This document shows positions 761 through 29,187 of a stretch of 29,634 nt of DNA, in pieces. Positions within the stretch are counted from its first letter, which is position 1, and each line of letters opens with the position of its first letter. Location: positions 1 to 29,634 of the forward strand of contig JBJCIZ010000501.1 in assembly GCA_051294375.1 (NCBI GenBank). Reading direction: 5' to 3'. The notes under the pieces are model-generated. The model was not told where the DNA came from and searched no databases. It saw only the letters and a program-made list of their open reading frames with translations. The DNA comes from Paraspadella gotoi (lineage: Eukaryota; Animalia; Chaetognatha). The translations under genes and the position numbers were made by a program.

Positions 761-984
761 CTGAGCGTGAAATTGACCGAGCACCGCTGGAGTCATTCGC
801 TCCGAATGAGACGAAGTAAATAATAATATGCGGGTCTCACGTCTTTAGGGCGATCGATTTAATTTGAGAGTATCTCGCGAGTAGGAACCGATTGGGGGGA
901 GGCAGAAGACGAAAACATGGGAAACTTTATTTACCGCTATAGGCTTTCCCCTACCTACTCAAAATAGTTAACGGACATTGGCCG

Positions 985-6730: not shown

Positions 6731-6779
6731 CTTCAACCCTGCCAGGTCTCTAGTGGACTGCACAGGTGCTTCAATCTCC

Positions 6780-7260
6780 AAGCTTATCGTTCCGATTTGT
6801 AGGCGGTTCGTGTCAAGGGTCCTGACAAGGTAAACTGAAGTTTACGCATTGTTTGATTCTGGCAGTAACGCGTACTTTATGTTCGAGAAAGGTTGGTGGG
6901 AGGAGCTGCCATTTGAAGACTGACATCTGTGGAGATGCAAGTGGGCGACACTGGACTCCACCAAACGTGGAGAAAAGAGTCAGGTTGATTTCAACTTTAG
7001 AATCAATTGATGGCTATAACAGAGAGATGTGGATTCCTGTAGTCGTTGCGATATTACCAGCAGGCCATGGAGTTCACATTCCTAAGAATAAGATTTAACT
7101 AAGTTTCCGCATCTCATGAGTGGTCCTTCATGATTGGACAGGAATGAGATTGATGTGATCATGGGTGCCGCCGATTTTTTGGCACACAATAACTAAAATG
7201 GGACAACTTTACCCTGACAATGACAAATAATGCTTCTGCTCGGCTAACTGGCGCTAGAGT
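6780..7260 (+). pseudogene. pol: Pao aspartic protease (DUF1758-like), disrupted
   Basis: TEVYALFDSGSN with the catalytic D at 6855-6857. IDVIMGA at ~7149-7170. Confidence 0.88.
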
Positions 7261-7559
7261 AGAAAATATCAAAACCTAACGATTTGGAAGAGAAGTATGA
7301 ACTTCCTCCACTCTTCTGCCTGTTGAAGGATGGTTCAAGAAATCCCAGCCGATTATGTGATGACAGGTTATGACTTCCCCTTGCACTGAACACTAAGGCG
7401 GCAGCTGTATCGGGCAGCCTTACTTGTGTCAGGCATGGAGGACAAAGTCCCTGGCCTGACAGCAAGTGAAGACCTTCTGGGGCTGGAACTGTTACCGGGT
7501 CGAGGCTCTAATCTCCCGGCTCAGTTTTTGTCAGCCATTATCACCCTGGAACAATGAAA

Positions 7560-8620
7560 GAGCTGTCTCGACGGCTTGATCGTTGCTTTCAGTGGGATTT
7601 TGGTGACCTGCCTCATGAGAAGGATGGTCGATCTAGAGATGATTTGGAGGCTTGAAAAGAAGTCCTTCAAGGCAATCAATTGAATTGGTTGATGGGGCAT
7701 TTTTTGGGTTGCCTCTCGCCATGGAAAGGTGGCCGTAAAGCTGCTGCAAATGAACCTTTTTAAGGTTGACCATTCGTGCCATGGCTATTAAGAGAGCCGA
7801 AGAAAGCCATGCTAAGTTGGGCTTCGCGATCGTAGAAAGCCTTTGACTAGGTGAATGGGATTGTTCCAAGGAAGTGGTTGGAATGAAGGAGTCGCCTCTG
7901 AGATCTCAGGAATCAGTGACCCTCTTCAGCCATCTGGACAATGCCCATAGTGCTCGTTCGTAAGAGATGATAGCCTGGGAAGGTCAGGACTTTGCCATGA
8001 ATGCTAAAGCCTGAAGTAAGAGGTATCAGGTTTGAAATAGTCAGCTCAAATGGCAGTCCAGACTTGAACAGCCAAAGTTAAATGCGGCATATCTTGCTTC
8101 GCTTTTAGGAGAAGCCTATAGTGATGATGGGATGTGAAAGGTTTCTTTCACAGGTGAGGGTTTCTCCTCCCGACCAAGAGGCTTTGAGGTTTGCCTTTTG
8201 GGTGATTCTGAGGCTCTTTGAGTCCTTGGATCCTTAAAGCTCTCGTGACTGTGTTTCGGATTTTTGAAACTCCTCCCATCTGCCTGTGCTTTGTGGTCAA
8301 GTACCTGGCTGAACCTAAGGTCGTGACAAATACCATCTCTGTCACGATTGAGGCAGTTAAAGCGGGAATTTGTAAATGTCGAATTGATATCATGAATGGT
8401 CAGGCATCTGTTTGAAGATGCTAAAAGAGTCACGTTGAACTGCAGGAGTTGTTTTGCCGCTGGTGGGTTTTCAACTCACCAAATGGCGGGTCGAATGACC
8501 CTGAGGTGCGGGCCAGGCGATTGGAGATTGTGGGCCAATCAGACCCTGAAAGAGGTGAAGGATCCTGATGAAGCTGATGGGTCAAAGCCCTTGGCGTAGC
8601 CTATGATCGAGGCACAAGAT
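7560..8620 (+). pseudogene. pol: Pao reverse transcriptase, disrupted
   Basis: LVDG..LP.WK (~7686-7728), PGKVR (~7974-7988), ILLRF (~8091), DVKGFF (~8131), GGF-QLTKW-SN (~8462-8498), KALGV (~8584). The YVDD position (~8368-8390) is garbled. Confidence 0.88.
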
Positions 8621-8649
8621 GATTTGGGCCTTTAAGGTGGATCACCTAA

Positions 8650-9480
8650 GGAGAGGGGGAGAAAGTGAGGAACTAAGAGGCAGTTGAATGGGGGTGGTAG
8701 CATCCCTGTACGACGCCCTACTAGGAATCGTCTCTCCCTGCCTCTTTTTGCTCAAGTGTAATACTTCAAGCGGCTTGTGTGAAGAAGGGGTGCAATTGGG
8801 ATGATGCCTGTGCCCCAAGGATGAGTTAGATTTGTTCATGGAATGGAGAGGTTCCCGGCCGAGATTGAAAAAATTGAGGCTCAAGGAGATACCATCTTCC
8901 CAATCGAGTTTGGAAGATGTTGCTTGACAGGACAAGCTCCAACGAAACTGGTTTTGGTGAGCCTCCATGGAAGCATATGGTGCGGTTGCTATCTTCCGCT
9001 TTGTGGAGTGTCACTGGCAAGTCCTATATTTGTTTTGTGACCTCGAGATCGAGGGTGGCACCGCATCAATCAGAGAAACAAAGGCTTGTTGGGAGACACT
9101 CGCCGCTTTAGCGTCTTGAATTGACTGCTAGCAGTCGTGGCGTTGACCTCTACAGTCTGCTAGAACAAGAACTCGTATGAGAAAGGCAGACTCAAGTGAC
9201 TCCTGTGGTCGGATTTCTCAATGGTCCCTGAAACAGATTCGCAATACAGAAGACCCGTTTTAAGGCCTTTGTTGGCAGAATCGCAATCACAAAGAATCCT
9301 GCAAAGGACGACGCCTGATTCAATGGAGATTGTTTCCCACGGACGTTATCCAGCTTGACATGTGTTCCCAGGGGCTTGAGGGGCTGAATGAAGAAGGAGA
9401 AGTGGGACCAACACCCATCAGGGTCCCGCAAGTTTCTCCGAGAGTTGCCCGAAAGTGCTTGGCCAGTGGAGCAGATTAGT
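8650..9480 (+). pseudogene. pol: Pao RNase H region (Peptidase_A17 Pfam region), disrupted
   Basis: VASLYD..LG (~8697), WDD (~8798), SMEAYGAV (~8964-8987), FVTSRSRVAP (9034-9063), RLEL (~9112), WSD (~9206), FKAFVGRI (~9259), QWR...PA.D..SRG (~9321-9375). Confidence 0.9.
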
Positions 9481-9779
9481 AGAGCCTGAAAGAAGTTACT
9501 GTCGTGCATAGAAGTGACATTCTAAAATGTTAAATAGTGCTGTGGAAGGAATGACTTTGTTGCCGCCTCTTTGAGAAATGGTTTCACATGGATAAAGAGC
9601 GGTTCGACGCTCATTTCGATCTTGCAGCGGTTTTTCTGGCCACCTCTTCAAGGTTTCCTCGCATGTCTCTTGATCCTCTTGAGCGTAGCTGAGGTGACCT
9701 TGGTCGCGGTTATTTGAGGCAGCAGTCATTCTCTAACAGAATTGAAGCGTTTGGCGATTTCGGAGAGATGTCCGAGACG

Positions 9780-10740
9780 AGAGCTTCGATCGGGAATTCG
9801 CCTCTGAGAAAGCTTGACCCTTTGTTGATGATGCCGGCCACCCCCTTAGTTGGTGGCAGACTTGCCAAAGGCGGACGAGGAGTATCAGACTATCAGTAAG
9901 GCACCCATGGATTCTCCATCGTTCGACCAATCTTGTCAAGGACCTGATTCAGAAGTATCATGAAGAGTGGCGCAATGTGGGGTGGAGGGCCACGTTGGCT
10001 CCCTTCGGTCTAAGTTCTGGATCTTGGGGGCGCGCTCTGCCACCAGATCAATGAGATGGCATTGTTTCATGCCGAAAGAATTCGGAGCGCAACCCCTTTG
10101 ACCCAAAAAATGGCAACCTGGCTTCTGACCGATCGTGTGACACGAGGCCATCCATGTCCTCTCTACCGGTGTAGAACCTATTTGGGTCCCATTTAGGTTC
10201 GATTGGGTCGTCGAGGCAGCAAAACAAAAAGATGGGTTGCGCTTTTTCAACTTGTCTACCGACTCCGCGCCGTTCACTTGGAGGTCGTTGAGACTTTGGT
10301 CGACAGGACAGTTTTATCTTGGCGTTGCTGCGCTTTAATGCAATGCACCCAGAGTCCCGTCACATGTCTCTGATTTGCGGCACAAATAAACTTCAAGGGG
10401 AAGCGCATCGTGAGTTGAAGGAAGAGTTCGAGAAGCGTCAGGCTTGGTTATGGCAGAGGCAGCACTTGACCAGCGGTTTTTTTCGTGGCGCTTTAAGCAC
10501 CTCAGGCACCGCACCAAGGGTGGAGTGGTGGGAAGAAGGTTGGTGAGGTCATGTAAGGAAGGCGCAATGTGGTTTGCTCCTTGATCGGTGAGAGGTTTCC
10601 ATGATCCTGCGGCCTGAGGTGTTCAATACCACTTGTGGCTGTGGATCGCTGGCATCCTCAACTGGCGTCCTATTCTAGGGTGGTCGGAACGATCCTAGCG
10701 ACGCGTTGGCTCTTACAAAATACCTAATGACTTTCTCCAT
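9780..10740 (+). pseudogene. pol: Pao integrase (HHCC plus DDE core), disrupted
   Basis: LRKLDP (~9804), LVGGRL (~9846), HPWIL (~9902), KFWI (~10012), TGV.....GP (~10165-10192), RWVALF/TCL/RAVHLEVV (~10230-10290), SD.GT (~10369), LNWRP (~10657), PNDFL (~10723). Confidence 0.92.
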
Positions 10741-10789
10741 CCTACGGTACGTTCCTGCTCTCTCATCCTCGGAAAAGAATCGTTCCGCC

Positions 10790-11118
10790 AGACGAAGCCG
10801 GTGATGCCCTTAGAAAGATAATGGAAGCAGTCGCAGAGCCTTTGTCGATTTCTTCGGAAGAGATGGCGTAATTGAGTAATCTCCGAGATTTGCAGAGCGC
10901 ACAAGAAATGGATGGCGACGAGGCGCAATCTCTCCATTGGAGATGTTGTACTCGTCGTGGAAACGAGCTGTCCGAGAGACGCCTGGAATATGGCGATAGT
11001 CGAAGAGACGATGCCTGTTGACGGAATTGTCCGGAAAGTGATTGTTCGTACCGCTTTAGGCAACGAGCCTTCACGTGATCGTACGGGTTTGGTGCTTCTT
11101 GAAGCTGATGGTGAATGA
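10790..11118 (+). pseudogene. pol: Pao C-terminal DUF5641 domain
   Basis: ORF 10912-11118 reads RRNLSIGDVVLVVETSCPRDAWNMAIVEETMPVDGIVRKVIVRT, preceded by LQ...KW. This is the typical end of a Pao polyprotein. Confidence 0.93.
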
Positions 11119-11657
11119 CTGCAGTGGCGAAGCGAAAAATGCCAAAATGGCTTAGCAGCTGCTTGAATGATATGAATATGGAACCAGCCGTTATTGATGC
11201 AATCCTCAAGATGTCCTCTTGGCGGCAAGCAGATGGAGGGGGAAGCCCCATCCACGACGCAGTTGAGGCGGCCTCCGCTCCACGACGCCGTGAAGCAAAG
11301 GAAGCCAACCTCCGCCTCCCTTGATCGTCGATCTGCTTGATCAGCCCCGGCAACTCTCGGAGTTGTCGACGGCGGTAGATGATTACTCTAGATGCTCTGG
11401 CATGCTATGATAGTGCTTGTTGCATTTGACCGGCAATTTCCGTTTGCTGCTTGATTTGATTTATTAATTTGATTTAGATTGGTATTTTAGACTTGGCATA
11501 TGATTTTGAACTATGATTTTTGCTTATGGATTGGTTTTAAGCGTCGAGGATATTGTTCGCTTTTATTTGATTTATCTGATGATTTTAAATTCCTGTAAGA
11601 TGGATCTGTGTCGATTTGGACGAGAGAATCGAGTTTCTGGGACCAGTGGGTTCTGTG

Positions 11658-11670: not shown

Positions 11671-12025
11671 TGTTTCCTTCCCTTAATTGATCTCGTTTTG
11701 AAGCCTCCTGGATCCACCTTTGCTCCTCAGCTTCCTCTCCCCCTGTCCGGTTGCTGTGATCGGCAAAACAGGAACGGGGTCTCGAGATGGTAAGGTTGGG
11801 CCGCCCTTAATCCATTTCAGGTCAGGATTGAAGACGCAAGTCACGTGGAACTTTTTTTAAACAGGACTTTGGGGTAAAAGCGTCGCGACAGGGAGAAGAG
11901 AGGAGGGAGAGAAAGAGAAGAGAGGCGTGGTTCGTTTTTAGTTCGAGCAAACCGAGTAATAATTCAAATTCCGCTGCTTATATTTTCTTGGCGTTGTAAT
12001 TTCGACAAGCAAACTTTAGAAAACA
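11671..12025 (+). repeat. Putative 3' LTR (TG...CA, ~355 bp)
   Basis: Starts with TGT after the PPT. The candidate end is AAAACA at 12020-12025. No second copy was found in the window, so the right boundary is a guess. Confidence 0.4.
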
Positions 12026-12079
12026 TTTTTTTTTTCTATTGCAGTAACATCAGACTCTTCATCACGGCTTTTTCTCGCC

Positions 12080-13850
12080 ACATGAAACGCCGTGCACGGC
12101 CCGCTATTCAAATGGAACGCCGTTCGCGACAGACATAACTGCTTGAAACGGTGAACTATTTCGGGCGAATGCGTTCAATCGTTGATCATTATTGGCCAGA
12201 AAATTAAATGCGATTATAGTATTTGCCCAATGTGTTATGTGGGTGTTTGTGTACAGATTAGCCAAAAATAGGACCAAATCCAATTGAAAAAAAATTCGGC
12301 GTCTGATCGCTTAGCAAAATCATCGCGCTTGTTTTACAGTACATCGACAGTAAATATTGGACAAATTCTTTTCATGAAAGTTAATTTTTTTAATTTAATT
12401 TTTCGGCCATCATATTCACAGAAGAGTAACAGTAGTTTCTCATACAGCTCACGCAATAATTTAAACCCTAGCTTAGAACAACGCAAATTGGTACAGACAA
12501 CAAAAAGACGAGGGCGCAAGTTAATGGTCACTTTGCGGGACTTTAAGTCCTACCAAACCTAAAAAAATTATACACCACAAAATAAAGAAAAATATATACC
12601 AAGCAAAATTGTTTATCTGTCACTCTATGGTTATATAACTAGGGTTTCCTCACGTTTTGTTCAGCATTTGTGATTTAAAATTGAACCCCACTGGTTTCAA
12701 GCAACCCCCAAGGCACCGTTAAAGTCGACAAACAATACTGACCAAGAAATGGCTATTCTAGAAAAACATGTGTGTAATCAGTTCCTTTTTTCTATTCTTT
12801 CTTCAAATAAAAAAAGGTACGGAGTAAGACCCGTAATCGAACCCTGGTCGAATGCAAAGAAAAAAATTAGTAAATTTGGCAAGCTCTTGAAGCTTAAAAA
12901 ATATTTCAAGGCATTTTGTTCAGAACAATTACGCGTCTTCATTCGCGATATTTTCCCAAAAGTCAACTTCTTTGGTCCTCGGAGTTTCGCCAGAAGTATG
13001 GGATATGTTTAGAAGAGGCATTCATGTAGCTATCGATTCATACGTGAAAGAATGTCCCATCGTCGTCAAAGGAAAAGAAACTCTTTAAATTTATTTTCGA
13101 AATAAATTTAATGCTTAACAGATATTAAATCTAATAGGAAGTCCAAATCTAATGTCACCGTACGCGTCATACCCTCTTGCAAATTGACTGCGAGTCAACT
13201 AAATTAAACATGTAATTCCCATTCGGAATTTACATCTCTTGGCCGAAAAACACTTTTGTCCGTTGTGCAACAAAAAAGTACAACGAAATCAGGCGATTAG
13301 TTTAACCATAAAATGTTAACTAAGGATATTCAGATGCCAACAATTTTGTTCGTGAAAGCGACTGGTTCAGTTGCATTTGTCAAGCAAGATTCTATTAATT
13401 AAAATCTATCCCAAACTTTTTACCGGGATTACACGGAGGTCAAAGCTGGCCTTTTTCTGATATTATTCTTAAGTTCAGTCGGACGATTAGAAACGCAATA
13501 AAGTTTAATGTTTAATTCCACCTCGCTGGGCAAATTTTCAAAGAAACGAGGACATTCAATTGATGTTAAAATGTAGCGAGCTGTTTACTATTGTGGCTTT
13601 TTTGAAAAAAAATTTTAAATGTTGCTTTTTTAAAGAAAGAAAAAAAGAATATTTTAAAAATATTCTGCTCCAGCTTGAAAGAAAGACAGGAACCAGCGGA
13701 AGAGTCCGGGAACGTGAATTTGACAAATGCCCACAGCAAACCGGCGGCCTTCTGATTAATCATCTCAGTTACCAATTAATGTTTCAATTCCAAAACTATA
13801 TGTTACGTTATTGGCCAAGGACGATAATTCCAAATCACGACAGGTACATT
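12080..13850 (-). pseudogene. Exonuclease paralog A: MUT-7/EXD/WRN-exo-like DEDDy 3'-5' exonuclease, heavily disrupted
   Basis: LKYFLSFKSLPNLLIFFFAFDQG (FAFD at 12847-12858) aligns with LRDFLSLALTGRLRFLLAIGFDTEG of copy D. RLF...SKLGF (KLGF at 12463-12474) resembles the MUT-7/EXD3 'LF.dp.ilKlGf' segment. A possible ExoIII remnant GQIL*S lies at ~12210-12230. Many in-frame stops. Confidence 0.5.
12559..12599 (-). other. Probable 41-nt spliceosomal intron in paralog A
   Basis: The minus strand reads GTATATATTTTTC...AATTTTTTTAG. It is very T-rich and lies between two coding-like segments. Confidence 0.5.
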
Positions 13851-13945
13851 TTTTAAGTTCAGTCTTATCTCTTACAATTAACCAATAAAAAAAACGGTAA
13901 ATTACAATTTTATAAAGGAAAATTTCACAAAAGTCTGGGTAACTC

Positions 13946-15670
13946 ATGGCTGCGTTCGTTTCGTCGATTTGAGCCTCAACAGATGACGCCTTTGCCTATT
14001 CCAAACTGAAGCTGGAAGCAGCGCACGACCGTCGTCTACATCGTCACTGATGCCATTGTATCGATTGGAATGAAGACAAGGCGTCTAATCGCCAATATCA
14101 AAAATTGATGGAAAGTCTGGCTACATAACAGGAGAAAACTTGCTCGGGGTTCTTGGGAGACGTTTCCAGTGTCGCCACACATTACCTTCACCAGCTTTTT
14201 AAAAAAGAAGCACCATCGCCCTCTTTTATAAAGCCCACACCAGCGAACTTGCGAGAACTATATTTCTTGAGAAGTAGATATGGTATTATTCTCATGGCGC
14301 AAACTGAAAACAATATTTATCCACAAGAATGCAAAATTTAAATCTGTGGGTTGAAAATGGACGCAACAAATACCTAATGCAACTTGCCTCAAAAAAGTTC
14401 AAGTTTTCCGTTGGATATCCATTAACTTTCCAGTTATGCATGATAGTTTATGAAATTGGTAAAGTCGTCGATTGTCAAGAATTCTTTCGCGAATATACTT
14501 TTAACGACACTGTCGGTGTACCTAAGGTTGGATATTTCGCACCAAGCCAATCATTTGAGCTCTGTTATGCCTAATCGTAGAATTCGCATTGAATGGGCTT
14601 CGTAGATAATGCTTTGTTATGCCGAACCCGATCAAAATTCCTACAGATTCAGGGCTGCTATTTGGCATTCCTTGCTCGCACCCATCCTCTACTTACCGAA
14701 AACCCAGCCAGCGCACCACCACCACCACCCAGTTTCTGGGGATCATCTTACGACCCAGTTTGGAGAGCAAATTGCAAAAATGTCAGAAATTGAAACCAAT
14801 GATTCACCCTACAAAAAAATTACCCACAAGGAGGTTCGAGCGAAAACTCGGAGAAATAGAAGAGTATATATTAGATTCGCAATTAGCAGGACAAAAACAT
14901 AAACTACACGCCGATTTGGAATGTGAGGTAGCAAAGCTGTTGGATCGAACCACTGGCAAACGCGTTAAAGTTTTTTAGACTTCCAATTAAGTGCGACGAA
15001 ACCAATCCATCAATAACCAAAATTCTTTAGGCGAAGCCTTAAAATGTACCTCCGAGCCCGATTCATCGGTAAAAAAGAAAGAATAATTGTTTAATAATCT
15101 TATCTCGTGCATCAAGGACCGCGTGATCCAGGGTTAACGTAATAGCTTCGGCCGAGCTGCGAGAGAAGTCCTCAAAAGGTTTGGGTGAGTTTAGGCCCAT
15201 TTTCCCAAATTGGTCAATGGTCGACTGACAAACTAGAATTTAATGTGGTTAAACAATTAGTTCAGCCACTACCTTTGGATTTTTTTATCAAAAGGAAAAA
15301 AGAAGAACGGGACTTTTCCCCGACTTGAAATAACGGCCGTCCGATAAAATTCTGTTTATCAGACAGCCGACGAACAACCAATTTAAAAAATCTGTGCGAC
15401 AAATTGTTAAGAACCTCTGAAGAGCGGAATTTATTGTAGAGAGCCTCACCTCGATTCCGCTTGACACGGTTTGGTTAAGTTCAGCGGTTAATTGGAGTTA
15501 AATAAAAGTTCGTGTGTAAACGTGCTCAATCTGCAGCAAAAGGTAAGGAACGGCAAAGGACATCAATAAATCATGGATTAAGCTTTCAATGATGAATGGC
15601 CCGGGAGAATGGAGACATAAATGGAAACAATAAACTATTTAAGAAAACCCCGACAACTGGCTTATGAATA
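13946..15670 (+). pseudogene. Exonuclease paralog B: DEDDy-like exonuclease with a C-terminal extension, disrupted
   Basis: Motifs occur in the expected order: FKK..PSFIKP..NLREL, ILMAQTE (ExoI position, ~14288-14308), LMQLAS (14374-14391), PKVGY (14521-14535), GFVD (14596-14607), RFERKLGEIEEYILDS (ExoIII position, ~14832-14879). Candidate ATG at 13946. Confidence 0.62.
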
Positions 15671-15858
15671 ATCATATCACGTGATCTGTAATAAGAAAGC
15701 AAAGGTTATACAAAAATAACAGATTGATGATTGATGATAATTAATCCATAGTTTTATCATAAGTAAAAGTTTTAATTGAATTAACACGGACGAAAATGGA
15801 ACCTACTTCCATCCGACATTTTGCAAAAAGTTTGAGTCCAACACAGCTTTCCTCCTTA

Positions 15859-17466
15859 CTAAGACTGAGCGTACCGCTCAGTGGTCGGACCCCTTGACGA
15901 GAACGGGGCGATCTTTCGCGGCAGAGGGACTCGCTCGCGTCCTCTTTCAACGGTTTTGGAGATCTTACGCAAAGCGAAGAGACAGGTCATTTTCTCACCA
16001 AATTTGTTAGACGAGAAGTGGCGAAGAATGGCCGATGGGTAGAACTTGAGCCGATGGAACCGGAGTCGCCGAAAAATGCCGAGCACGGCGGCAAAACTTG
16101 GCCTTTAGTGACGATGTTTCTTCGGCCACAGATCGAATTGAAGGACGAAGATCGCGCTCGGTAAACAGATTTCTGCGAATGTCGAACACTTGGAAGGGGA
16201 CCACTTGAGGTCGTCAGTGAAAAATTCGACCGTACGCTTTTTTGTAGAATAAGAAGAACGGACACTATTGGAAAGGTCCATGAACAAATTTGGAGCAAAT
16301 TCAGGCCCATAGCCGTAGGTTGAGGTTATGGAGAAGTGAAAGACGTGCTCTTGTCGACCGCGGAAGGTTATAAAAAGTCAATTTCGTCTTTACCGCGTAT
16401 GTATCCAAAGGAACGATGAGTGGGACGGCAGGAAAAATATTTCGCTTGTGGAGGCTTGTGGTCTGAGATCTCTTAGAAGATTTCTGTCATTGACCAATAC
16501 GACCGTCTCCGCAATCCGCAATTAGATTGTGGAGTGGGGATGAAAGGGGAGCGCATATGGTCCCTAAAAAAATCTTCTCCCCATAAATAGGATTTCTTTT
16601 TCGCCGTGAGTTTTCAGAAGAAAAGGAGGCGGAGATTCAGATGGGTCTTAGCGACGTAAAATCTGCGCATTTTCTGAAAATTTCGTCGTCACCTTGCTGA
16701 ATGAAGACGCAAATAGCCGTAAAAGTCGTATTTCTCAACTTGGCCAGAGCCAAGTATCTCCATCACGCGCTCGTTTTCCGTTGCGCATTAAGAATGTCGT
16801 AACGACGGGGAAAGACGTAAACTTTTTTTTCGGCGGCATACTTCATAAAATTTTAACACTGGATTGCGCCTTGAAAATGAATTAGGCAAAAATCGTTCCT
16901 TCTGGATTTTGAGAATGAGGACCTGGTCGAGTTTCCGTTGAAGGGCATCGTCGTTGTTTTTCCCAGTTTTCGAGAAGGAGCGGATGACGAGGGCGTTTTC
17001 GGTGGAACGGAAATTTTGCGAGGACCAACGCTTCAAGGGATTGATTGTCGTAGGGAAGACGTAAAAAGTAATCCAGCCTGTAAAAACGGGAACGTAGAGA
17101 ATTGTAAACTGGCACATTGGCAGTGGAGACGTTCCTCGACCTTAGCTTTCCAGACCGGCAATGTAGCGCTTGGCCCTGGGCGTGAATTTTTTCGCGCATC
17201 TACTCATCGTTGGTTTGAAACCTTAAGCGCGAGCACACCTTCTCAAAACTCTTCCTCCCGCACGGATCTCAGGTTTTAATCCAAGAACCGCTTTCGGTTC
17301 CGAGGAAGGGGAATGGGTTTGAAGGGGAGGTTTGGGACTTGGAAGTGAGGATTGGGGGAAGGGAGAGACATAAGAGAGGGTTGGTAAGGACTGGAACAAA
17401 GGTGGGGGGGGATGAAGAAAGAGGCTGAAGAAATGGGGGATACAATAAATTGGATAAGATAGCCAA
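15859..17466 (-). pseudogene. Exonuclease paralog C: DEDDy-like exonuclease, frameshifted
   Basis: Collinear with copy D (C/D pairs): ILYVP..FY..INP / VLDLP..IY..HNP; QKERFLPNSFS / DKDRYENFEFS; YVFPRRYDI / FIHPRFYDI; AI....QGDD (~16685-16717) / AIGFDTEGDD; IFPA / IFPA; FMDLSN (~16267-16284) / FIRLSN. PSIRSV and TPVPSAQV (~16043-16066) fall near the ExoIII position. Confidence 0.68.
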
Positions 17467-17697
17467 ATTCTACAGAATCTTTCAGAATTATTTATTATTT
17501 TAATTTAGTGTTATAAGGAAAGATTTATTAATTATCAGTGTCCGGTTAAATTAGCCATATCTTTATCATTATCGGTATCACTATAGTTTTTCAGAAACAG
17601 AAATAGCGGAATCATAACTTATATCGAAATTGGTCAAGGTAATCGTTATGAGGATTCATCATACTACATTTATCCGTCTTTTCGTACCTTTAAGGTT

Positions 17698-19100
17698 TCA
17701 TGGAGCAGGCGCATAAAGGGTCGGAAAATTGAGGGCATCGTCAGCTGGAGCGTCGAATATCGAAGGCTCTGAATAATGTAGAGTCTCGACGACGAGCTCA
17801 TCCGATCTTTGGCTGCGGCGTACTCGTATCTCGAAGGTTGGCCATTCCTTTCGCGAGTGAGCTTAGCCAGAGCGATTCTCCCTTTCGTTTAGCCGTAAAC
17901 GCTTCCTCCAATTCAGCGGCCAGTTTCACCCGCTTCTTTTCATCGCTTCTTTTTCCCTTATTCTAGGCGATGAAATTCCTCGTTTCTCTTCTCCCGCAGC
18001 TTTCGGCTCCGTTTTTGGGTCGTTCCAGAGCCTGGACGATAGCCTTAAGGGATGGACAATAATAGGATTTCCGGATCAATTAAGTGTTGAATGAAACTGG
18101 GCGAGGCGACACCGAGGAATGTCGTGAGAAGGATCAAGACCCGGTTTGGTAGGCCAGCCAGCGCAATCTAGCGCAGCATAGCAAAGCTGTGATGGTGATA
18201 AGAGGGACTTTTTCTCCTCGAAGTCCTGCCCAAATGGTTACAGATGAAAGGATCTTTTAATCCAACATCCCACTCGGGTTTCGCGAAATGGTGATTAAAT
18301 CTTAGAGAAGGGGAGTCAAGACGCCGTGGATTGGCTGTCGAGGGAAACCCACTTCAGTAGTGACGGGGGCCTTTAGCGTAGTTGGCGCAGAAGTGGTACA
18401 TGTTAGATAATCTAATGAAACTTTAAATTTTCCTTTTTCTCTAGAGGGATCGAAAAGTTGTGCGACGATTCTGGATAAGTCTTTTTTCGAACATCCTTGC
18501 CAATAAAGACAGCAATAGGGAATGCTTGATGAGCCGACCAGTTCGTCGGCAGGGAAAATACGAACAAGCACAGACATTCCGATAGTGGATTCCAAACTGG
18601 AAAACAATCACCATTCGACTCCGTTGAATCTCTGATGCCATTTGGAGAGTGGCGTCATCGCCCTCAGTGTCGAAACCGATAGCCAGAAGGAATCTGAGAC
18701 GTCCCGTCAAAGCGAGACTCAAAAAATCCCGTAAGCGGTGTTTTCTCGCGATATCGTAGAATCGGGGATGTATGAATGTTGATCGACGCGAGGTTTTGAT
18801 CTTGAAACTGGCGCTGAATGCGCTGAATTCGAAGTTCTCATAACGATCTTTATCCAAGTTGTTTTTGGTCCGTTTTGACGCGACGGGTTATGGCGAAGGA
18901 AGGGATGATAAATCACCTCGACGTCTTCGAGGTCTGGCAAATCGAGGACGAATACCTGATACACCATTCCTCATATAGCTCTCCGTTATTCCAGTCCGCT
19001 TCGGGCGAGTATTGGTCCTTGAGAGCAAAAATTTTCCGACGCGAACGATACGTTTTCTTTTTGCCCTCTTGCCCTCCCACGTCTCTTTCGGACACGAGGG
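17698..19100 (-). pseudogene. Exonuclease paralog D: WRN-exo/MUT-7/EXD-type DEDDy 3'-5' exonuclease with a C-terminal coiled coil; catalytic motifs intact but frameshifted
   Basis: ExoI: AIGFDTEGDDATLQMAS (GFDTE at 18663-18677). ExoII: GCSKKDLSRI (D at ~18480). ExoIII: QDFEEKKSLLSPSQLCYAALDC (YAALD at 18166-18180). A charged helix EKKRVKLAAELEEAF follows at ~17890-18000. Confidence 0.8.
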
Positions 19101-19631
19101 AAACGAGTTAATAGGGGCAGTTTACTGATTTTTGAATGAAAAGCTTAATGTAAACTTGCTGGATAAGAAGGGGAAAAACTATATAGCTACATTTTCAATG
19201 CAAATTAAATCGATTGACTTAAATGAAAGCCCACAATGAGATAAAGTAAAATCAAACTTCATATTTGCTGCTATAAATAAAAAACCCAAATACTTTTGAA
19301 AACTTAAAGAATGATATCTCCGTTGGTTTAGCACGTAATCTAGACAAGCTAAGAGTACTTGACAGTGAAGAAAGGCTAGCGAGGACAATTATTCATTCAA
19401 GGCTACAGGCGTTCTTCACAATCTGTTCGCAGCAAGTATAACTAATTGAACTGCTGTATGTTTTAGACATTGTTTTGACTCATAGGTAAAGCTTGACGGT
19501 AACGAAATAGATAAAAATACTAATACAACGTGCTGAAGAATAGCACCAAAATAGCTTCAATTGGTTGCAAATTTGTAAATATCCTTTTAAAAGCAGTTAA
19601 AAATTAAGCATGTCGGTTTTTTTTGAAAATA

Positions 19632-20764
19632 NNNNNNNNNNNNNNNNNNNNNNNNNTTCAAATTCCTTTAATGATAGACCCTTAAGCTTATGATGTGGGT
19701 CCCCTTAAAATGGAAAAAAACAAAAGTCATATTTATTCGAAGTATTTTTACTTAAATTTACTCATAATTATTATGTTTGTAGGTAGGACTGGCGAGTCTC
19801 TCGAGATTCGCTCATTGATAGTTGTAGATAGATTCGTTCAGAAGGTTGGAAATAAATCCGACGTTGGGATCATCAATGTAGGTAGGGCGAAAAGTAACTC
19901 ACTTTGACGCCAGATCCTAAGGACGCGTTTCGACGGACAACTGGAGGCGTTAGAGGCGCTGCTGAAGGTCGTAGTAAAGCGGAAGACTCTGGCGGACGTT
20001 GACCGGAAGTTACGCCAAATTTAGCGCGCGTGGCGTAAAGGAATCGGGAGGCGAAACTTCGACCGAGTTTAAAAAGGGAGTAGTCTCCAGAGTTGANNNN
20101 NNNNNNNNNNNNNNNNNNNNNNNNNNNNNNNNNNNNNNNNNNNNNNNNNNNNNNNNNNNNNNNNNNNNNNNNNNNNNNNNNNNNNNAGACGAGAGATGGC
20201 AATAGATATCTATAATGCTTGGATTATTAGTTTTTATGCTAATAAACCAAAAATAAAGATTGGTTACCGAAACTTTTGATCAAACTATAATGCAATTAAT
20301 TATTGGATTAATCATAACAATCAATAACAATGAAAATAGTGAAACGACTGTTGAGACTACTCATAGGTAAAATATTACTGAGTAGTTCTGGCGAGTTCTA
20401 TAGTTTGTAAATAAGATTTAGAAGCTAGANNNNNNNNNNNNNNNNNNNNNNNNNNNNNNNNNNNNNNNNNNNNNNNNNNNNNNNNNNNNNNNNNNNNNNN
20501 NNNNNNNNNNNNNNNNNNNNNNNNNNNNNNNNNNNNNNNNNNNNNNNNNNNNNNNNNNNNNNNNNNNNNNNNNNNNNNNNNNNNNNNNNNNNNNNNNNNN
20601 NNNNNNNNNNNNNNNNNNNNNNNNNNNNNNNNNNNNNNNNNNNNNNNNNNNNNNNNNNNNNNNNNNNNNNNNNNNNNNNNNNNNNNNNNNNNNNNNNNNN
20701 NNNNNNNNNNNNNNNNNNNNNNNNNNNNNNNNNNNNNNNNNNNNNNNNNNNNNNNNNNNNNNNN
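19632..20764. other. Assembly gap region (N-runs at 19632-19656, 20097-20185, 20430-20764)
   Basis: Runs of n. Further gaps occur at 23122-23131 and 23779-23803. Confidence 0.99.
19782..20096 (+). other. Exon-like fragment of an unidentified gene, truncated by a gap
   Basis: GC-richer block after a TTTGTAG acceptor-like site. It reads RTRFDGQLEALEALLKVVVKRKTLADVDRKLRQI. No family recognised. Confidence 0.3.
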
Positions 20765-21456
20765 AGCGAATTTTTTAACTTCAGTGGTGGCGACGATGGT
20801 TAACGACTAGCCAGTGGATTACTCGTTTTTTATTGTTTTAAAATTAATTAGAAATTGAATGAAAACAAATCGAAGTAATTTCTGAGTGAATATATATATC
20901 GGTCTTGGCCGATAGACGTCACCAATAATTCTTGGAAAGGATTTCACAGGATGGTGGAAGAGAAAAATTATTTGACTTTGTTATGATTAAAGCTCTTTGT
21001 TTAGTTTGTTAACAAATAAAAAAAAGATTTTTATATTATGTCACTATGTATGATATGAAAAGCATAGTAAAAACTCATCGAATTTCAACCGATTTCAATC
21101 AACCAGATTTAGTTCCTAATGATACATCTTATTACTAATCAGTTATTAATTAAATCTCATCCGCATTTGTCCGCCCTTTTTAAAAATTTAAAAATGCTTT
21201 TCATTCCAAAAATAATAAAAAAGAAGTCAATATTCTTCAGAAATTACAATATGATTCTTTTCTTTGTATATTTAGCAAATATATACCTATTACTTATAAT
21301 ATAATAAAGAAAAAATATTAAGTTGGGTCAATTTCTTTTTAATATCAAAATTATAAATCAAAGGTTGTTCAACTACCATAAATGATTTTTTTAAGAACCA
21401 AATTTGGCGGTAAATAAATTTTTTTTCCATATTTTTTCATCGCGGAATCGTCTCGT

Positions 21457-21999
21457 AACCGATCGACGGAGCGAACGATCTTCGAAGCATTTTTTTTTTG
21501 ATTAGGTAAAAAAGTAATAAATTATGGATGACGAGTTGACGAGAATTAACGCCTCTCTCTCTGCAGACCGTTCAAATCCATTGGATCGTCCGTCTCTCTT
21601 TCTCTCTCTCTCTCTCAGGCGACAAGGAAAACCGAATCGAAAAAAAAAACCGTTAACTGACGACTATGGAATAAGCGCTCTATCGTCTTAATAGGTAAAA
21701 AATAAAAACATTAGCGATTAAATTATATGTACATATATTTACAAATTATCCTCGAAAATGAACAATGATGGAATAGAAAATTTTTTATACATGTATTTAT
21801 AAATTATCGTCAAAATGAGCGACAACGGAATACAAAAGCAAAAAAATTCGAATTACTCGTGATAAGACCGATGGATTGGAATAAAATTTTGTGTGTGGGT
21901 AGGAAAGTGTGTGATTAAGCTAGATATGAAGTTTTGATGAAATTGTGCGATCATCATCATTTTTATTATGTTATGATTTGTGATGATCAGTTATGTTTG

Positions 22000-22041
<42 letters not shown>

Positions 22042-22515
22042 GTCAACTAAAATTTAAAATAATCTTCAGAGTAAAAAAAAGAATAGAAGACATAGTAAAA
22101 AATAACTTTCTGTTTCCCGCTGTAATTCAAAAGATTAAAAAAATGCCATCAATCGCCATTCACTTTATGCTACAAAAAAGATAAAGACTTGTCCTAATAT
22201 TTCCTTAAATTCTTTGGGTTTTCTTGTAATAAACATGGCCCCATTTCTTAAACCGTCGATCGACCGATCGACCCGACCGAGCACCACCGACCGGTCTTCG
22301 AAAGGTTTTTTTGTTCGGTCAAGGTAAATTAAATTAAAATAAAATTAAATTACGAAATGAAGAAATGTCGTCGACGGGGAATTAATCTCTCTCTCTCTCT
22401 CTCTCTCCCCGCGGATGATTCGAATCCGAATCCCTTCGCATTTCGGATCTTTCTCTCTCTCTCTCTCTCTTTATCTCTGGTGCTCTCTCTCTCTCTCTCT
22501 CTCCCCCTCTCTTTT
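21457..22515. repeat. Two diverged copies of a ~160-260 bp interspersed repeat (21457-21617 and 22250-22515)
   Basis: Both read AACCG(A)TCGA..TCTTCGAA..polyT..AGGTAAA..GACG.GAATTAA.(CT)n..TTC.AATCC..GGATC..(CT)n. Confidence 0.6.
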
Positions 22516-24472
22516 TTTCACATGAAAACACAGCAAATTTAAGTTGTGCAGGCCAAATACCACTTTCAGATTATATTTAAAATTTTGCTGTCCATAGATT
22601 AAAATGTATTGTTTGACCACGCTGTAAATTTCTACAAATATGCAACCAATATAAAAACTACTTGATTAAGATTTTTTTAAAAAAAAGACGTCTGCATAAA
22701 TTATAAATTTTAATGTTTGCTTCTTTAAATTAAGTTGGTTTTAACAATATAATTTTTTTCTGCAATCATTTGGGAAAGTAGTTAAAAAATTTGATATAAT
22801 CAGGTTGCTTAATTTTCTTAAAAATATCGGTGAGAAGTAAATCTTTTTCAAATTTTAATTTTTATCTCAAAAATTTTTAAAAATTAGGAATGAATCAAAA
22901 TTTAAAGTATTGACTGATTTTGTTTAAACTTTCTTTTTAAAATAATATAAATATAAAAAGAAGAAAAAGAATTTATACTTTTGTTAAATTTTTAATTATT
23001 ATAATTAAGTATCAACTAAGTATCAATATAATTTATCAATATGTTTAAGGGATGAATATGAATATTAATAAATGGTTATTACAATTATATTTTTAAAAGA
23101 ATAAAATTTATGTTTGTTTTTNNNNNNNNNNCTCTGAAGTTTTATCCGATTTTTTAAATTTTTTTTTAAATTTAAAAAATACTGAGACACCAAAACACAG
23201 ACGAGTGAACAAGGAGGAATGCTGCAAGGGGTTTACTTATTTTTGTCTGTGGCAAACGGTCAAGCTTTAAAGCCAGTTTTGAATGTGGGGAACAGAAACT
23301 AATTGGCAAGAGGAGAGCATAACGATTGTCCATCAGTGGAATTAGTGACCATCTATGGCACCATAGAGTGTTTCTATCTCAGAGGATCCGATTGCAGATG
23401 CCAATGGACGATTGTCTTTGACTTTTAAAAATTGTACAATTTTTGTATTACTCTTTTAGTAAAAAATGGTATTAGGCATCATTAAATATGTATTTTGCAT
23501 TCTCTCTACATAAACGTTTATATTTTCATCCTTAATTGATCCAATTACATCATAAGAATGACTAGGTTTTAGGTACTAGTATTACACTCAGGTAGCTGAA
23601 GTTAATTGAATATAAAGAATTAAAATTCGCTTTTAAAAATGACTTTACCGTCTTGAATGAAATTTTTTAAGTTTACCGATAAAAAAAATTGCCCGAATTT
23701 TGGGTGGCTCTTGAAGCTGAACCTTAGTCAAATTTTAGGTTTTTTTATTTGAAACACGAAGGAAATATACTTCTTTTGNNNNNNNNNNNNNNNNNNNNNN
23801 NNNAAATTCTAAACTAAAACGATCGTCCGAGTTTGCTCGTTTTTTAGCATGTGCGAGTGTGAATTCAAGGAGACAAAATTTTATTAAGAACCTGAAATGT
23901 CAGTGTGGTAACGAAGAAGAAGAGAAGTTCGCAGGACCAGAGTGCGTGTGGACGTGCAGAAGGACGCTGATCAGCGTGAAGTAGTAAATTGATACAGTTT
24001 GTTGAGGAGATTTCGTCGTGACCGTGTCTGAACGAGAAGAAAATAGTTTTTGTTTTGTAGAAGTACAGGCGAATGGAATTTGACGTTTTTCCTACGATGA
24101 GAACCTCCAAAACTGGTGAATGGTGCGGATTTATTGTTCACTTAAACTCATAATTTGAAAGTGTTTTTAAGATTGTCTGATCGCCTGCAATTTCTCATGT
24201 TTGTGACTTGAGTTTCGCAGCGGCCCAGGATGGTTCTTAGATAAATTTAGTCTAGTAACCACGGGGAGGTGTTGGCTGCACAAAACATTTTTCACGTTAA
24301 CCTTTTGAGCAATTGGTGACTGTACCTTGTTCCCAAGATTGTGCTGATTCTCACGCGAGAGTGGAGCAATGGTAAGCAAGAAATGTACAATTACCAGTAA
24401 AACCGCAGAAAAGTCTGTAAATAGAAGAATTATTTAATACTCAAATTAAGTAATATACGAAAGCCTTTTTAG

Positions 24473-25851
24473 ATGGGCCAAAGCGACCCAATGTGGAGCC
24501 CGGTGGAGGCATCCTATCTACTCTCTCAATGGTGGAAGGCGAGGAATTGCGACGCCCTCAACCCAAGCTTCGCCTCTGATGCCTCAGAAATGCTTGCATA
24601 AACGCCATGTGACCGCTCTCAATTTGATGGAACTGCATTCTCAGTCCTCAAGGAATCTAACATAGCGACTCAATATGTCAACTCAAATTGCGAAAAAAAA
24701 GAAACTGTGGCCATGCACCATACCCATTTTCCACCGCATCCCTAACACCGTCCCTCTCATCATCGCCGCAACACCACTTCAAGATAAGCCATGGAGGGAA
24801 CGTTACCTTCTTCCACGCGCGAGACGAACTTACGCATCAGGCGCTGACCAAGGGAATTGCAGGCCGCGCAGAACTTAACCTCATCGTTGAAAAACGACTC
24901 CCTCTCAACAACGAAAGATATCGCCGAAGATGAGATACCGATTAAACTGGTAGTCGAATGGAACGCGAGAATTTCAAAGAGAAAGGATTTCTGGCATGAC
25001 ATTTCTTCCGTGGCTGCCGAAGACCCGACGATCGCGTTCATTTTGGGGAACGGTGACGAGTGGGAAGTTTCGAGCAGGTCTCATCTCAAAGGTCGTTTAT
25101 GGAGCGAGCCTGTAAAGAAACTGCAATGAACAAAACTGGCGCAAGGTGGCGAAAATCCGAGATCGACTACGACGCGCTTCGGTTCACAACAGCACTTTGG
25201 AATCTCAGTTTCAGGCCCCCACAAACAGGCGGCAAAAAGGCCCCCAACCCCGTTCCCAACCCAAACATACCTGCATCGCGTAGTAAGAGCAGACAAGTTT
25301 GATTTAAATAACGGTCATCTTCAAACCCTGCTCAACTTACCGTGCGTCCTCTAGTCGTCCAACATCGCGACATGCGCCAATGTGGTACCAACGAAAAAGG
25401 GGGAGAGAGGAAGTGAAGACGACTTCTTTATGAAAAAGAGGTATGAAATTTGAACAAGAAAAAAGGATGCGCAAAAATCGCTGAATGAAAAAACTTCTTG
25501 CCGACGAAAAAGAAAAACTCGAAAAGGAAAGAAAAACCATTGAACAGGAAGCTTGACAATCTTCGACAAGAACATCAGCATGAATTGCAATGCTGGAGAG
25601 AGGACGTATTTTGCACGTCTGTGCAAGAGATTCCCGACAACCACGTGCTGAATGCTCCGCCAACGCCGCGCAACGTGCACTCCATTTTTTCCCAGCAACT
25701 GCTGAGACGGACTATCCAATCCACCTTCAACCCACCACCTTACCTGCAAACCTCAACCCGATCCCCAAGATCTCAACCTTCCTCAAACCAAGCAAGGTTC
25801 TTAAGAGAAAATAAACTTATTTTTGGACAAACTCGTTGCGGGTCGCTGTAA
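24473..25851 (+). pseudogene. Exonuclease paralog E: relative of copy D, apparently lacking catalytic residues, with a C-terminal coiled coil
   Basis: Ungapped matches to D, in order (E/D): FKISHGGNVTFFHAR / FKIKTSRRSTFIHPR (24778-24822); SEIDYDAL / SQLCYAAL (25156-25179); PNPVPNPNIPASR / PGLDPSHDIPRCR; LTVRPL / IIVHPL. A coiled coil KLLADEKEKLEKERK follows. EDPTIAF resembles the exonuclease 'edp.i.k' segment. ATG at 24473. Confidence 0.58.
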
Positions 25852-26764: not shown

Positions 26765-27148
26765 CGATATCAGTTTCGGAGTGGTTTTATCAAGAGGAAG
26801 CGGCAGCTTGGAATTAATTTTAGAATTTGAGGAATTTTAATTTCTTTTTGTTTTTTTATTATAAACGCTTTAAAGTAAAAGCTTTTTTTTTTCCTTTTTT
26901 TTTGGCTGCCCTCGCTAAAATGCCTACAAATGTAAGTAATGAAATTCAAATTCTCTTTCTTCTTTTTTCAGTGAATTTGATAATAAGTATCTTTGTTTAG
27001 GGGTTGAACCTTCTCGCTTTCTACTAAAATATCAGTGAAATAATTTGTTTCTACATTCGGCGCTTTTAAGGTTTTACGGCTGCTAGAGGTTAATGCGACG
27101 CGCTTTTATCATATTTGGGCTTATTTTGGGAGCGGCATAGAAGAACGA

Positions 27149-29187
27149 GGAGGTTGTTAAAATTGGTGAGGGACAGTTAGTTAAATAGTCTTTTTATTTA
27201 TCAAACCAACAAATTGTCCTCTCTTTTTATTTTTTATGTCTGCCTTCCTCTCTCTCTTTTCTCTTTATTTTTATGTATCTTTCTCGTCACTCTCAAGATA
27301 AAAACGTTAAGATACACCCAGAAAACGACTTTTTCTCTGTAAAAAGATTGAATACTATTAAAAATAACAGAGAAGAACGGTTTTTTTCAATATAAAAAAA
27401 AATAAAAACTCCAAAAAAAACGCAAACGTTTTTTTCCAATGTAAAAAGAGTTAAAAAAATAATCACGGATAAACGACTTTTCTAAAGGTAAAAGTAATAC
27501 AAACGTTAAATACAGAACCGGCAGACGACATTTCCAAGAGAGATAACAACTTTAAAAACCAAGAAAACGCTTTTCCACACAATGTTAAAAAGAGATATAA
27601 AATTTCTAAAAGAACATACCGGAAAACGGATATTTCCAAGAAAAAGAATAAAAACGTTAATATACTTCTGCAAATAACATCATCGGAGGTTGTTAAAATT
27701 GGGTGAGGACAGTTATTAAATACTTTTTTATCAAAACAAACAAATTCTCTCTTTTATTTTTATGTCTCCCTTCTCTTCTCTTTGCTCTTAATTTTATGTA
27801 GCTTTCTTCTCAGCTCTCGAAAAAAAGAAATTAAAAAACGTTAAATAGGCACAGAAAACGCTTTTTCTCTGTAAAAAGGATATGAAAAACTTTAAAATAA
27901 CAGAAAACGATTTTTTTCCAATGTAAAAAGTAATGAAAAACTTTAAAAAAAAAAAAACGGCAAACGTTTTTCGCAATGTAGAGAAAACTATAAAAAAAAC
28001 ACTGATAAATCGACTTTTCTGAAAGTAAAAGTGAAAAGAACGTTAAAGACAGGGCGCAGAGGACGATATTTCCAGGAAGAGATAACAACTTTAAAAACGA
28101 GAAGAAAGGAACGCTTTTTCCAATGTAAAAAAGAGATAAAAATTTCTAGAAACACCGGAAGAGACGATATTGTTCCAAAGAAAAAAGAAAATAAAGAAAC
28201 GTTAAAGGTACTGTGTCTGCAGAATAGACATGCATGCGAGGTTGTTAGAAATTGGGTGAGGGACAGGTTAATGTGAAAATCTTTTTATCAAAACAAACAG
28301 AATTCCCCGTTTTCTTTATTTTTTATGTCCCTCTCTCTACTCTTTTCTCTTTAATTTATGTAGGCTTTCTCTCACTCTCAAAAGATAAGAGAACGTTAAA
28401 TTACAGCCAGGAACACGGACTTGTGTTCTCTGTAAAGATATGAAGAACTTTAAAAAATAACAGAAAACGGTGTTTTTCCAAGAGTAAAAAGAACTAAAAA
28501 CTTCCAAAAAAAAAAACGGCAAACGTTTTTTCCAGATGGTAAAAAGAGTTAAAAACACCGATAAACGGAGGTAGTTTCTGAAAGAGTAAAGTATAAAACG
28601 TTAAAGAGAGCGGCAAGACGATATTGTCTAAAGAGATAGACAACGTTTAAAAACAAAGAAAAAACGCTTTTTCCAATGTAAAAAGAGATAAGAGAAATTT
28701 CTAAAACACCGGAAAACGATAATTTCAAAGAAACAAGAATACACGCTCTAATTCTTCTGCAAATAACATCAATCGGAGGTTGTTAACGATTGGGTGAAGG
28801 ACAGCGTGGTAATTAAATATCTTTTTATCAAAGCAAACCAAATTTCCTCTCTTTTATTTTTATGTCTGGCCTTCTCTCTCTCTTTTCTCGTTTAAATTTA
28901 ATGTAGCGGCTTTCTCTTCACTCGTCAAAAGATAACACGTTAAATCACCAGAAAGGACTGTTTTCTCTGTAAAAAAGATATGAAAACTTTAAAAAAATAA
29001 CAGAAGAACGATTTTTTCCAATGGAAAAGAGAAATAAAAACTTAAAAAAAAAACGTCAAACGTTTTGGTCCAATGTAAGAAGAGTTAAACAACACCGATG
29101 AACGGAGCTTTTCCTAAGTAAGAAGTAAAGTAAAGACTTTAAATGGAGACACCGGCAGACGACATTTTCAAAGAGATAACAACTTAA
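27149..29187. repeat. Satellite array, ~3.75 copies of a ~540 bp unit with internal ~45-50 bp subrepeats
   Basis: GAGGTTGTTA..ATTGG(G)TGAGG(G)ACAG anchors at ~27150, ~27686, ~28238 and ~28776. Each unit repeats AAACG..TTTTTCCAATGTAAAAAAGAG..AAAAC.TTAAA several times. Confidence 0.95.

What the first reader, a model, noticed from the sequence alone, without database searches (positions are those of the whole stretch)
12080..25851. Hidden cluster of five highly divergent DEDDy 3'-5' exonuclease paralogs (WRN-exo/MUT-7/EXD type)
Seen: five frameshifted coding blocks (A-, B+, C-, D-, E+) share collinear motifs once frames are stitched. D has GFDTE..ATLQMA, KKD and SQLCYAALD. No DNA-level similarity between copies was evident by eye, which suggests an old expansion. 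Established: DxE / D / YxxxD with an 'llQla' strand and 'kvG' defines the DEDDy family of WRN exonuclease, MUT-7/Nibbler/EXD3, EXD1/2 and Egalitarian. These are usually low-copy in animals, and several act in small-RNA or transposon silencing. Inference: this is a lineage-specific expanded nuclease family, possibly a fast-evolving RNA-trimming or anti-TE/antiviral module. It is the best candidate for an undescribed system in the window.
Basis: partly seen in the sequence, partly recalled or inferred. Interest (0 to 1): 0.85.

Follow-up and report, generated by a model that had tools for sequence, protein, structure and literature searches.

The report
Orphan exonuclease, possible worn copies nearby
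One stretch of this frame-broken, likely animal scaffold carries in order the signature motifs of an enzyme predicted to trim RNA or DNA ends and has no relative in our searches; two or three neighbours may be worn copies, but a five-enzyme cluster is not shown.

Summary
Partly confirmed. Block D (minus strand, about 19100-17690) carries a full DEDDy motif chain (GFDTE, LQMAS, FQF, an ExoII Asp, QLCYAALD) across 3-5 frame breaks. A chain built from a WRN-exo-like profile scores 83-111 against whole-window shuffles of 48-61 (0 of 150 each); plain HMM scores stay weak. No other block passes.
Weak traces link D's front half to C- (family-wise p about 0.003-0.01) and to a plus-strand stretch at 14680-15000 (borderline). 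E shares one short motif. A shows nothing and reads better on plus. C lacks the ExoI acids in register.
D has no relative among 1.84 billion representatives, so it is likely not a conserved WRN, EXD2, MUT-7 or Egl orthologue; blanks are weak here because the retrotransposon control also came up blank. The breaks are likely long-read errors.
Best reading: one orphan 3'-5' trimming nuclease in repeat-rich DNA, likely mobile-element cargo, with one to three possible decayed duplicates. Such cargo is known (Dada, Juno/Vesta, Terminons). The scan's earlier notes showed nothing similar.

The parts
17690..19110 (-). Block D: one long exon or gene of roughly 450 codons, broken by frame changes; front region of unknown kind, DEDDy domain, charged tail
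   Evidence: three-frame view; coding model z 4.6 on minus, 4.0 on plus; ends approximate
18663..18677 (-). D ExoI motif GFDTE (Asp 18671, Glu 18665)
   Evidence: hhalign of the natural piece to the WRN-like alignment E 0.0056
18594..18647 (-). D strands LQMAS and IVFQF, same frame as ExoI
   Evidence: adding this block lifts the chain from 83 to 108
18479..18504 (-). D ExoII Asp: GCSKKD (63 codons after ExoI Asp, as D108-D171 in EXD2) or IGKDV in another frame
   Evidence: EXD2 numbering from PMC6648332; which reading is right is not settled
18166..18189 (-). D ExoIII motif QLCYAALD (Tyr 18180, Asp 18168)
   Evidence: hhalign of the natural piece E 0.0008
16640..16993 (-). Block C front: likely paralog of D's front half and ExoI region; QQGDD region has no D-x-E in register; two stops
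   Evidence: score 70, 0 of 260 shuffles, Gumbel p 1.5e-4 per pair; best of 150 tiles; no continuation past ExoI
15830..16640 (.). Rest of block C: coding-like, strand unresolved, no DEDDy chain
14600..15450 (+). Candidate paralog 'B2': HPLL at 14683, DLE at 14913, FQL at 14981, FIGK at 15062, YQTAD at 15357, in several frames
   Evidence: anchored extension 4-7 of 300 over the next 50 residues, not beyond; WRN-like chain 192 of 300
13948..14632 (+). Front of block B: MQLAS 14377, PKVG 14521, LCYAEPD 14612; no ExoI D-x-E and about 40 residues too short between KVG and Tyr
   Evidence: (12 of 300)
12082..13620 (+). Block A: coding-like on plus; no DEDDy chain on either strand
24450..25851 (+). 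Block E: coding-like with a charged, coil-like tail; no D-x-E found on plus; one short match to C's front at 24501-24550
   Evidence: 260 of 300; 1 and 5 of 60
4400..11400 (+). Heavily broken Pao/BEL-type LTR retrotransposon body (context; limits approximate, no LTR pair found)
   Evidence: DUF5641 E 9e-11 at 10876-11115; 1 of 45 pieces passes a Pfam cut-off
27149..29185 (.). Four copies of a 540-base tandem repeat, used as an error gauge
   Evidence: 77-80% identity for all 6 pairs, more indel events than substitutions, no transition excess

Best explanation
Block D carries a complete DEDDy motif chain and likely encodes a single orphan 3'-5' exonuclease, predicted to trim the 3' ends of single-stranded RNA or DNA, likely as cargo of mobile DNA, and one to three neighbouring stretches may be decayed duplicates of it. 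Shown: motifs, order, spacing, more than chance. From family knowledge: four acids and a tyrosine hold two metal ions and release nucleotides from a 3' end. Inferred: that the breaks are read errors, so the gene is intact in the organism; that RNA is the substrate; that it came with a mobile element and serves 3'-end processing of that element's RNA or DNA ends.
For: Motif chain 0 of 150 whole-window shuffles in 4 settings; the profile family finds WRN-exo, MUT-7 and EXD2 structures at E 1e-32 to 8e-21. ExoI to ExoII spacing equals EXD2's 63 codons. No hit among 1.84 billion representatives, unlike what a conserved host orthologue should give (inference). One exon of about 1.4 kb, 6 kb from a retrotransposon, among gaps and tandem repeats. 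Repeat copies differ mostly by 1-base indels in a star pattern. Transposon-borne DEDDy genes are published (PMC3706591, PMC5408684, PMC6431247). C-/D- similarity.
Against: No element ends, transposase or polymerase motif was found around D, so the cargo origin is not shown. HMM and hhalign scores are weak. ExoII to ExoIII is about 100 codons against 71 in EXD2. The retrotransposon control also found no relative, so orphan status is soft. Intron-like AT-rich stretches with splice-like ends flank D on both strands, which fits a host gene as well. The error gauge lies 8 kb away; D itself holds 444 bases without a stop, so its breaks could be true decay. The C and B2 matches use different frames of D at 18907-18743, so both cannot be in-frame there.
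Confidence: 0.45

Rival explanations
1. D is an ordinary but fast-evolving host gene (spliced, lineage-specific offshoot of the EXD2/MUT-7 group) with a few tandem duplicates, and would act in host RNA 3'-end trimming.
For: Acceptor-like site at 19159 and donor/acceptor pair 17687-17425 around an AT-rich stretch; by eye LQMAS, VLVR and GCS..D resemble EXD2 as printed; no element ends found.
Against: No hit to EXD2, WRN or MUT-7 chains with three natural pieces; no membrane segment (best 19-residue hydropathy 1.6) and no CxxC pair in D; the same splice test gives 16 pairs in the intronless retrotransposon body.
Confidence: 0.27
2. One reading: five (or at least four) old DEDDy paralogs form a lineage-specific nuclease cluster, hidden by read errors, that would act in small-RNA or anti-transposon defence.
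For: The two best real-sequence matches to D's front half are C- and B+; a short HP-L motif recurs in D, C, B2 and E at similar places; at 10% read error my chain test misses 28-68% of true DEDDy genes.
Against: At 2-5% error the test finds 79-99% of them, yet only D passes; the HP-L motif was chosen after seeing it and scores at shuffle level (8, 4 of 60); A has no link and reads on plus; E has no D-x-E; a three-block profile finds no further member (26 of 60); no evidence on function.
Confidence: 0.1
3. D is a dead copy: the frame breaks are real mutations and the whole region is decayed mobile or duplicated DNA with no active product.
For: In-frame stops without apparent shifts in A, B and the frame at 26168-26818; the neighbouring retrotransposon is wrecked and has no LTR pair.
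Against: All five catalytic positions of D are present; indel excess in repeat copies fits read error better than mutation.
Confidence: 0.12
4. The DEDDy motifs in D are a chance arrangement in an unrelated gene.
For: No Pfam, PDB or fold hit; a scan over very many windows will meet rare motif chains.
Against: Whole-window p 1e-4 to 5e-6 with five motifs in order and spacing.
Confidence: 0.06

Closest known systems
EXD2 (human, PDB 6k17; PMC6648332)
   Same: D-E-D-Y-D order; 63 codons from ExoI to ExoII Asp; short motifs look alike by eye
   Different: No N-terminal membrane segment seen; about 30 extra residues before ExoIII; no sequence hit; HNH-like domain not seen
WRN exonuclease domain and stand-alone WRN-like exonucleases of bacteria and fungi (PF01612)
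   Same: The profile built from these detects D's motif chain
   Different: Very short loop between ExoI and the LQ strand; only 4 bits overall; no helicase motif nearby
MUT-7 / Nibbler / EXD3 (PMC11347159)
   Same: DEDDy domain with a front extension
   Different: Front region of D is only about 140 codons; no CxxC pair for a MUT7-C zinc finger
DEDDy ORF3 of bdelloid Juno/Vesta LTR elements and Terminons (PMC5408684, PMC6431247)
   Same: Stand-alone, divergent DEDDy frame near a retroelement
   Different: Those read DEED; D reads DEDD, lies 6 kb beyond the retrotransposon on the opposite strand, and no LTR encloses it
Dada transposases with an inserted DEDDy domain (Laccaria, Ectocarpus; PMC3706591)
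   Same: DEDDy with all four acids in transposon-rich DNA
   Different: No transposase motif by recalled patterns, no snRNA or tRNA target in the window

Membership tests
DEDDy 3'-5' exonuclease (block D) | ExoI D-x-E, ExoII D, ExoIII Y-x3-D in order | tested here: met
   across frame breaks; ExoII Asp has two possible readings
DEDDy 3'-5' exonuclease (block D) | Profile hit above the PF01612 cut-off | tested here: inconclusive
   no hit for stop-free pieces; joined form could be scored only against my own profile, 4.0 bits
DEDDy 3'-5' exonuclease (block D) | RNase H-like fold | tested here: inconclusive
   model of one 148-residue piece, pLDDT 42, no match at E 0.001
DEDDy 3'-5' exonuclease (block D) | Metal-dependent 3'-5' activity | not testable with these tools
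   needs purified protein
DEDDy 3'-5' exonuclease (blocks A, C, E) | Three motifs in order | tested here: not met
   read error could hide them at about 10%
DEDDy 3'-5' exonuclease (block B / B2) | Three motifs in order | tested here: inconclusive
   B front 12 of 300 without ExoI; B2 has D-x-E and Y-x3-D in plausible spacing but chain 192 of 300
EXD2 | N-terminal membrane anchor | tested here: not met
   best hydropathy 1.4-1.6, none at the front; an upstream exon cannot be excluded
MUT-7/EXD3 | MUT7-C domain with four-Cys zinc finger (lost in Nibbler) | tested here: not met
   no CxxC in any frame of D 19160-17690
WRN | Fusion to a RecQ helicase | tested here: not met
   no Pfam helicase hit; the one Walker-like pattern lies on plus at 17038
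Egalitarian / EXD1 | LOTUS or Lsm-like partner domains (recalled) | tested here: inconclusive
   no Pfam hit on pieces, but pieces are nearly blind here
Dada transposon with DEDDy insert | DDE triad and DxxH around the exonuclease; insertion in a small RNA gene | tested here: not met
   patterns recalled; the paper's alignment file could not be read
Retroelement DEDDy ORF3 | Position inside the element, between pol and the 3' LTR | tested here: not met
   no LTR pair found; D on the opposite strand, 6 kb away
Subfamily placement by tree | Clade with WRN, EXD1-3, Nibbler or Egl | not tested
   no animal DEDDy sequences could be brought into the script machine

The most novel reading that the evidence does not exclude
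D, C, the stretch at 14600-15450 and perhaps E are a local family of very divergent DEDDy proteins that share an undescribed front domain, with one active member and partly dead siblings, carried on an unrecognised large mobile element or serving as a fast-evolving small-RNA trimming module of this animal lineage.
Probability: 0.28. Interest if true: 0.55.

Novelty: new member of a known kind. Interest (0 to 1): 0.27.

Why it matters
If only D is real, it is one more divergent DEDDy nuclease of a kind already known as transposon cargo and as host RNA trimmers: modest interest. If C and B2 are true siblings with a shared front domain, it would be an unreported expansion of a family that is usually low-copy in animals (recalled), and would make it testable whether such expansions belong to mobile elements or to host small-RNA defence. 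Eight literature searches showed no paper on such an expansion; they cover open-access full text only.

Tried and rejected
No genome is held for this window, so copy number could not be counted. Sequencing runs: none was listed (no evidence either way). Homolog searches all blank: D piece 0 of 1016 candidates, 0 at E 0.001 among 1.84 billion, 0 of 251 metagenome and 0 of 7 and 0 of 2 viral stretches, phages none; the frame at 26168-26500 0 of 144 and 0 of 6, three phage matches at E 5-7; the retrotransposon control 0 of 164. PHROGs and NCBIfam: 41 pieces each, none over a cut-off. The protein atlas could not read the D piece; run on a stored homologue it only confirmed that the seed is PF01612. 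First profile was NrnC-type and found nothing above shuffles. Local frameshift alignment with the WRN-like profile ranked D's two motifs 2nd and 3rd in the window but below the shuffle mean. X-joined D core against A, B, C, E: all within shuffles. BLASTP of the D piece with a 41-residue piece of C: no alignment. Alternative stop-codon use rejected: no frame exceeds the shuffled maxima in blocks A-E. Coding on plus for C and D as the source of their similarity rejected (C+/D+ 43). A DxxH-like word just after D's ExoIII was considered as a Dada sign and dropped (no other motif). No RNA family or tRNA. Earlier scan notes: five listed, none bearing; other look-ups empty.
Full report
Setting. The window is eukaryotic in style: no genome is held for it, it has five N gaps of 25, 90, 335, 10 and 25 bases, CT microsatellites and a broken Pao/BEL-type retrotransposon, named from DUF5641 at E 9e-11; that this group is animal is recalled. 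The host taxon was not determined. Sequence quality is poor: the four copies of a 540-base tandem repeat are 77-80% identical in all 6 pairs, with more indel events than substitutions (for example 60 against 36), mostly single bases, and no transition excess. I read that as raw long-read error used to fill gaps (inference; that 25-N gaps mark one gap-filling program is recalled and was not verified, listing only). Only 1 of 45 stop-free pieces of the retrotransposon passes a Pfam cut-off, so searches with pieces are nearly blind here.

To test them I built a profile from 40 WRN-exo-like proteins, one fungal and the rest bacterial or unnamed; a 30-sequence alignment of mostly the same set finds WRN-exo at 1e-32, MUT-7 at 7e-22 and EXD2 at 8e-21 in the PDB. 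It holds no animal sequence, which limits it. Chains of 4 or 5 motif blocks from this and from a broader profile, allowed in any frame, score 83, 108, 89 and 111 at D; whole-window shuffles average 51, 61, 48 and 56, and 0 of 150 reach D in each setting. Simple patterns agree: 0 and 2 of 300 shuffled windows for strict and loose forms, 175 of 300 for a very loose form. Results against: the X-joined domain gets 4.0 bits by hmmsearch and 10% by hhalign, though above all 100 shuffles; NrnC scores as well as the WRN-like set, RNase D less (25.7, 25.6, 19.2), so the subfamily is open. A model of the 148-residue piece had pLDDT 42 and no fold match. ExoI to ExoII is 63 codons, as in EXD2 (D108 to D171, passages of PMC6648332); ExoII to the tyrosine is about 100 against 71. 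I put D being a true DEDDy homologue at about 0.9.

Other blocks. The finding gives no coordinates for them, so I set limits myself. Five-motif chain, shuffles reaching the observed score out of 300: A+ 118, A- 21, B+ 12, B- 21, C+ 152, C- 84, E+ 260, E- 50, D+ 93, D- 0. Power: with 2, 5 and 10% added error D is still found in 99, 93 and 72% of 200 trials, and 10 NrnC or RNase D genes outside the profile in 93, 79 and 32% of 100. The front of B has MQLAS, PKVG and LCYAEPD but no D-x-E before them and only about 30 codons from KVG to the tyrosine; with motifs half taken from D it reaches 8 of 200, the same as a retrotransposon antisense control. A simple coding model, right on 3 of 3 retrotransposon segments, prefers plus for A (z 4.2 against 1.4 in its larger part), B, E and also C (5.9 against 2.7); a sense against antisense test is mixed for C.

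Paralogy. Translated alignment with shifts allowed in both sequences over 60 block and strand pairings gives one outlier, C-/D- at 70: 0 of 260 local shuffles, p 1.5e-4 per pair, best of 150 real tiles with family-wise p 0.003; one of four earlier global shuffles had reached 64, so the tail may be heavier. The match covers D 18947-18609 and C 16993-16640, puts no D-x-E in C opposite ExoI, and does not continue. The second tile is plus-strand 14683-14846 (55; family-wise not significant). From that anchor the next 50 residues of D still align better than chance (4 and 7 of 300 shuffles, 3 of 200 real anchors), placing DLE at 14913 opposite DTE and FQL opposite FQF; later stretches fade (37-121 of 300, one reading 10 of 300 at 90 residues) and the WRN-like chain is at chance (192 of 300). 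My earlier limit for B had cut this candidate. A profile of D and this stretch has its best masked hit in C (3 of 300 targeted, shuffle level window-wide), the reverse test fails (275 of 300), and B2 against C directly is at chance (126 of 200). The shared short HP-L motif was picked after the fact; leave-one-out ranks are 1, 1 and 3 but scores are at shuffle level, E's match to C is 1 and 5 of 60, and the three-block profile finds nothing further. The C and B2 matches use different frames of D at 18907-18743. My odds: C sibling 0.6, B2 0.45, E 0.2, A under 0.1, all five DEDDy about 0.05.

Mechanism. Shown: motif chain in D. From the family (PMC6648332 passages; PMC5408684 section 3.3): two metal ions held by four acids and a tyrosine remove nucleotides from a 3' end of structured RNA or single-stranded DNA. 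Inferred: D is intact in the organism, and it is accessory cargo rather than a conserved host gene, because it has no detectable relative, sits in one long exon in repeat-rich, gap-filled DNA, and lacks the partner domains of EXD2, MUT-7 and WRN (passages of PMC11347159). Against cargo: no ends, transposase or polymerase were found, and splice-like sites flank D (where the intronless control also gave 16 pairs).

Known cases. Dada transposases of a fungus and a brown alga carry a DEDDy insert (PMC3706591, parts 1-2 of 4 of the text read; supplements listed but not read, the alignment file unreadable, and it may bear on the Dada test). Bdelloid Juno and Vesta elements and Terminons carry DEDDy frames (PMC5408684 passages and section 3.3; PMC6431247 passages). 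D fails the positional tests for these, so it works like them at most.

Verdict. One real, very divergent DEDDy gene; a small sibling group possible but unproven; five nucleases not shown; no evidence on defence function. New member of a known kind, interest 0.27.

Noticed in passing
window 24494-24530 (+): Start of block E fits a recalled Myb/SANT-like pattern (W-x3-E-x3-LL) and the block ends in a coil-like charged tail; Pfam gave no hit.
   Followed up: partly
window 26168-26818 (+): A further coding-like frame of about 217 codons with three stops and no relative found; weak match to the tail of C (48).
   Followed up: partly
window 27149-29185: AT-rich tandem repeat of about 540 bases, four copies, each with an internal 50-55 base sub-repeat.
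   Followed up: partly
window 1561-2020 and 2097-2492: A second local duplication at 76-78% identity with the same indel-rich pattern.
   Followed up: partly
window 21439-21616 and about 22260-22470: Two copies of a roughly 200-base element with CT microsatellite, 65% identical (score 59, shuffles up to 26); possibly a small non-autonomous element.
   Followed up: partly
window 19873-20096 (+): GC-rich, coding-like island beside an N gap within AT-rich DNA.
   Followed up: no
window 26008-25846 (-) and 11930-12044 (+): Strong splice-like donor and acceptor sites around AT-rich stretches; the minus-strand pair runs against the strand on which E and the next frame read best.
   Followed up: no
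window 194-830: GC-rich stretch with repeated short words and a 127-codon open frame at 316-699.
   Followed up: no
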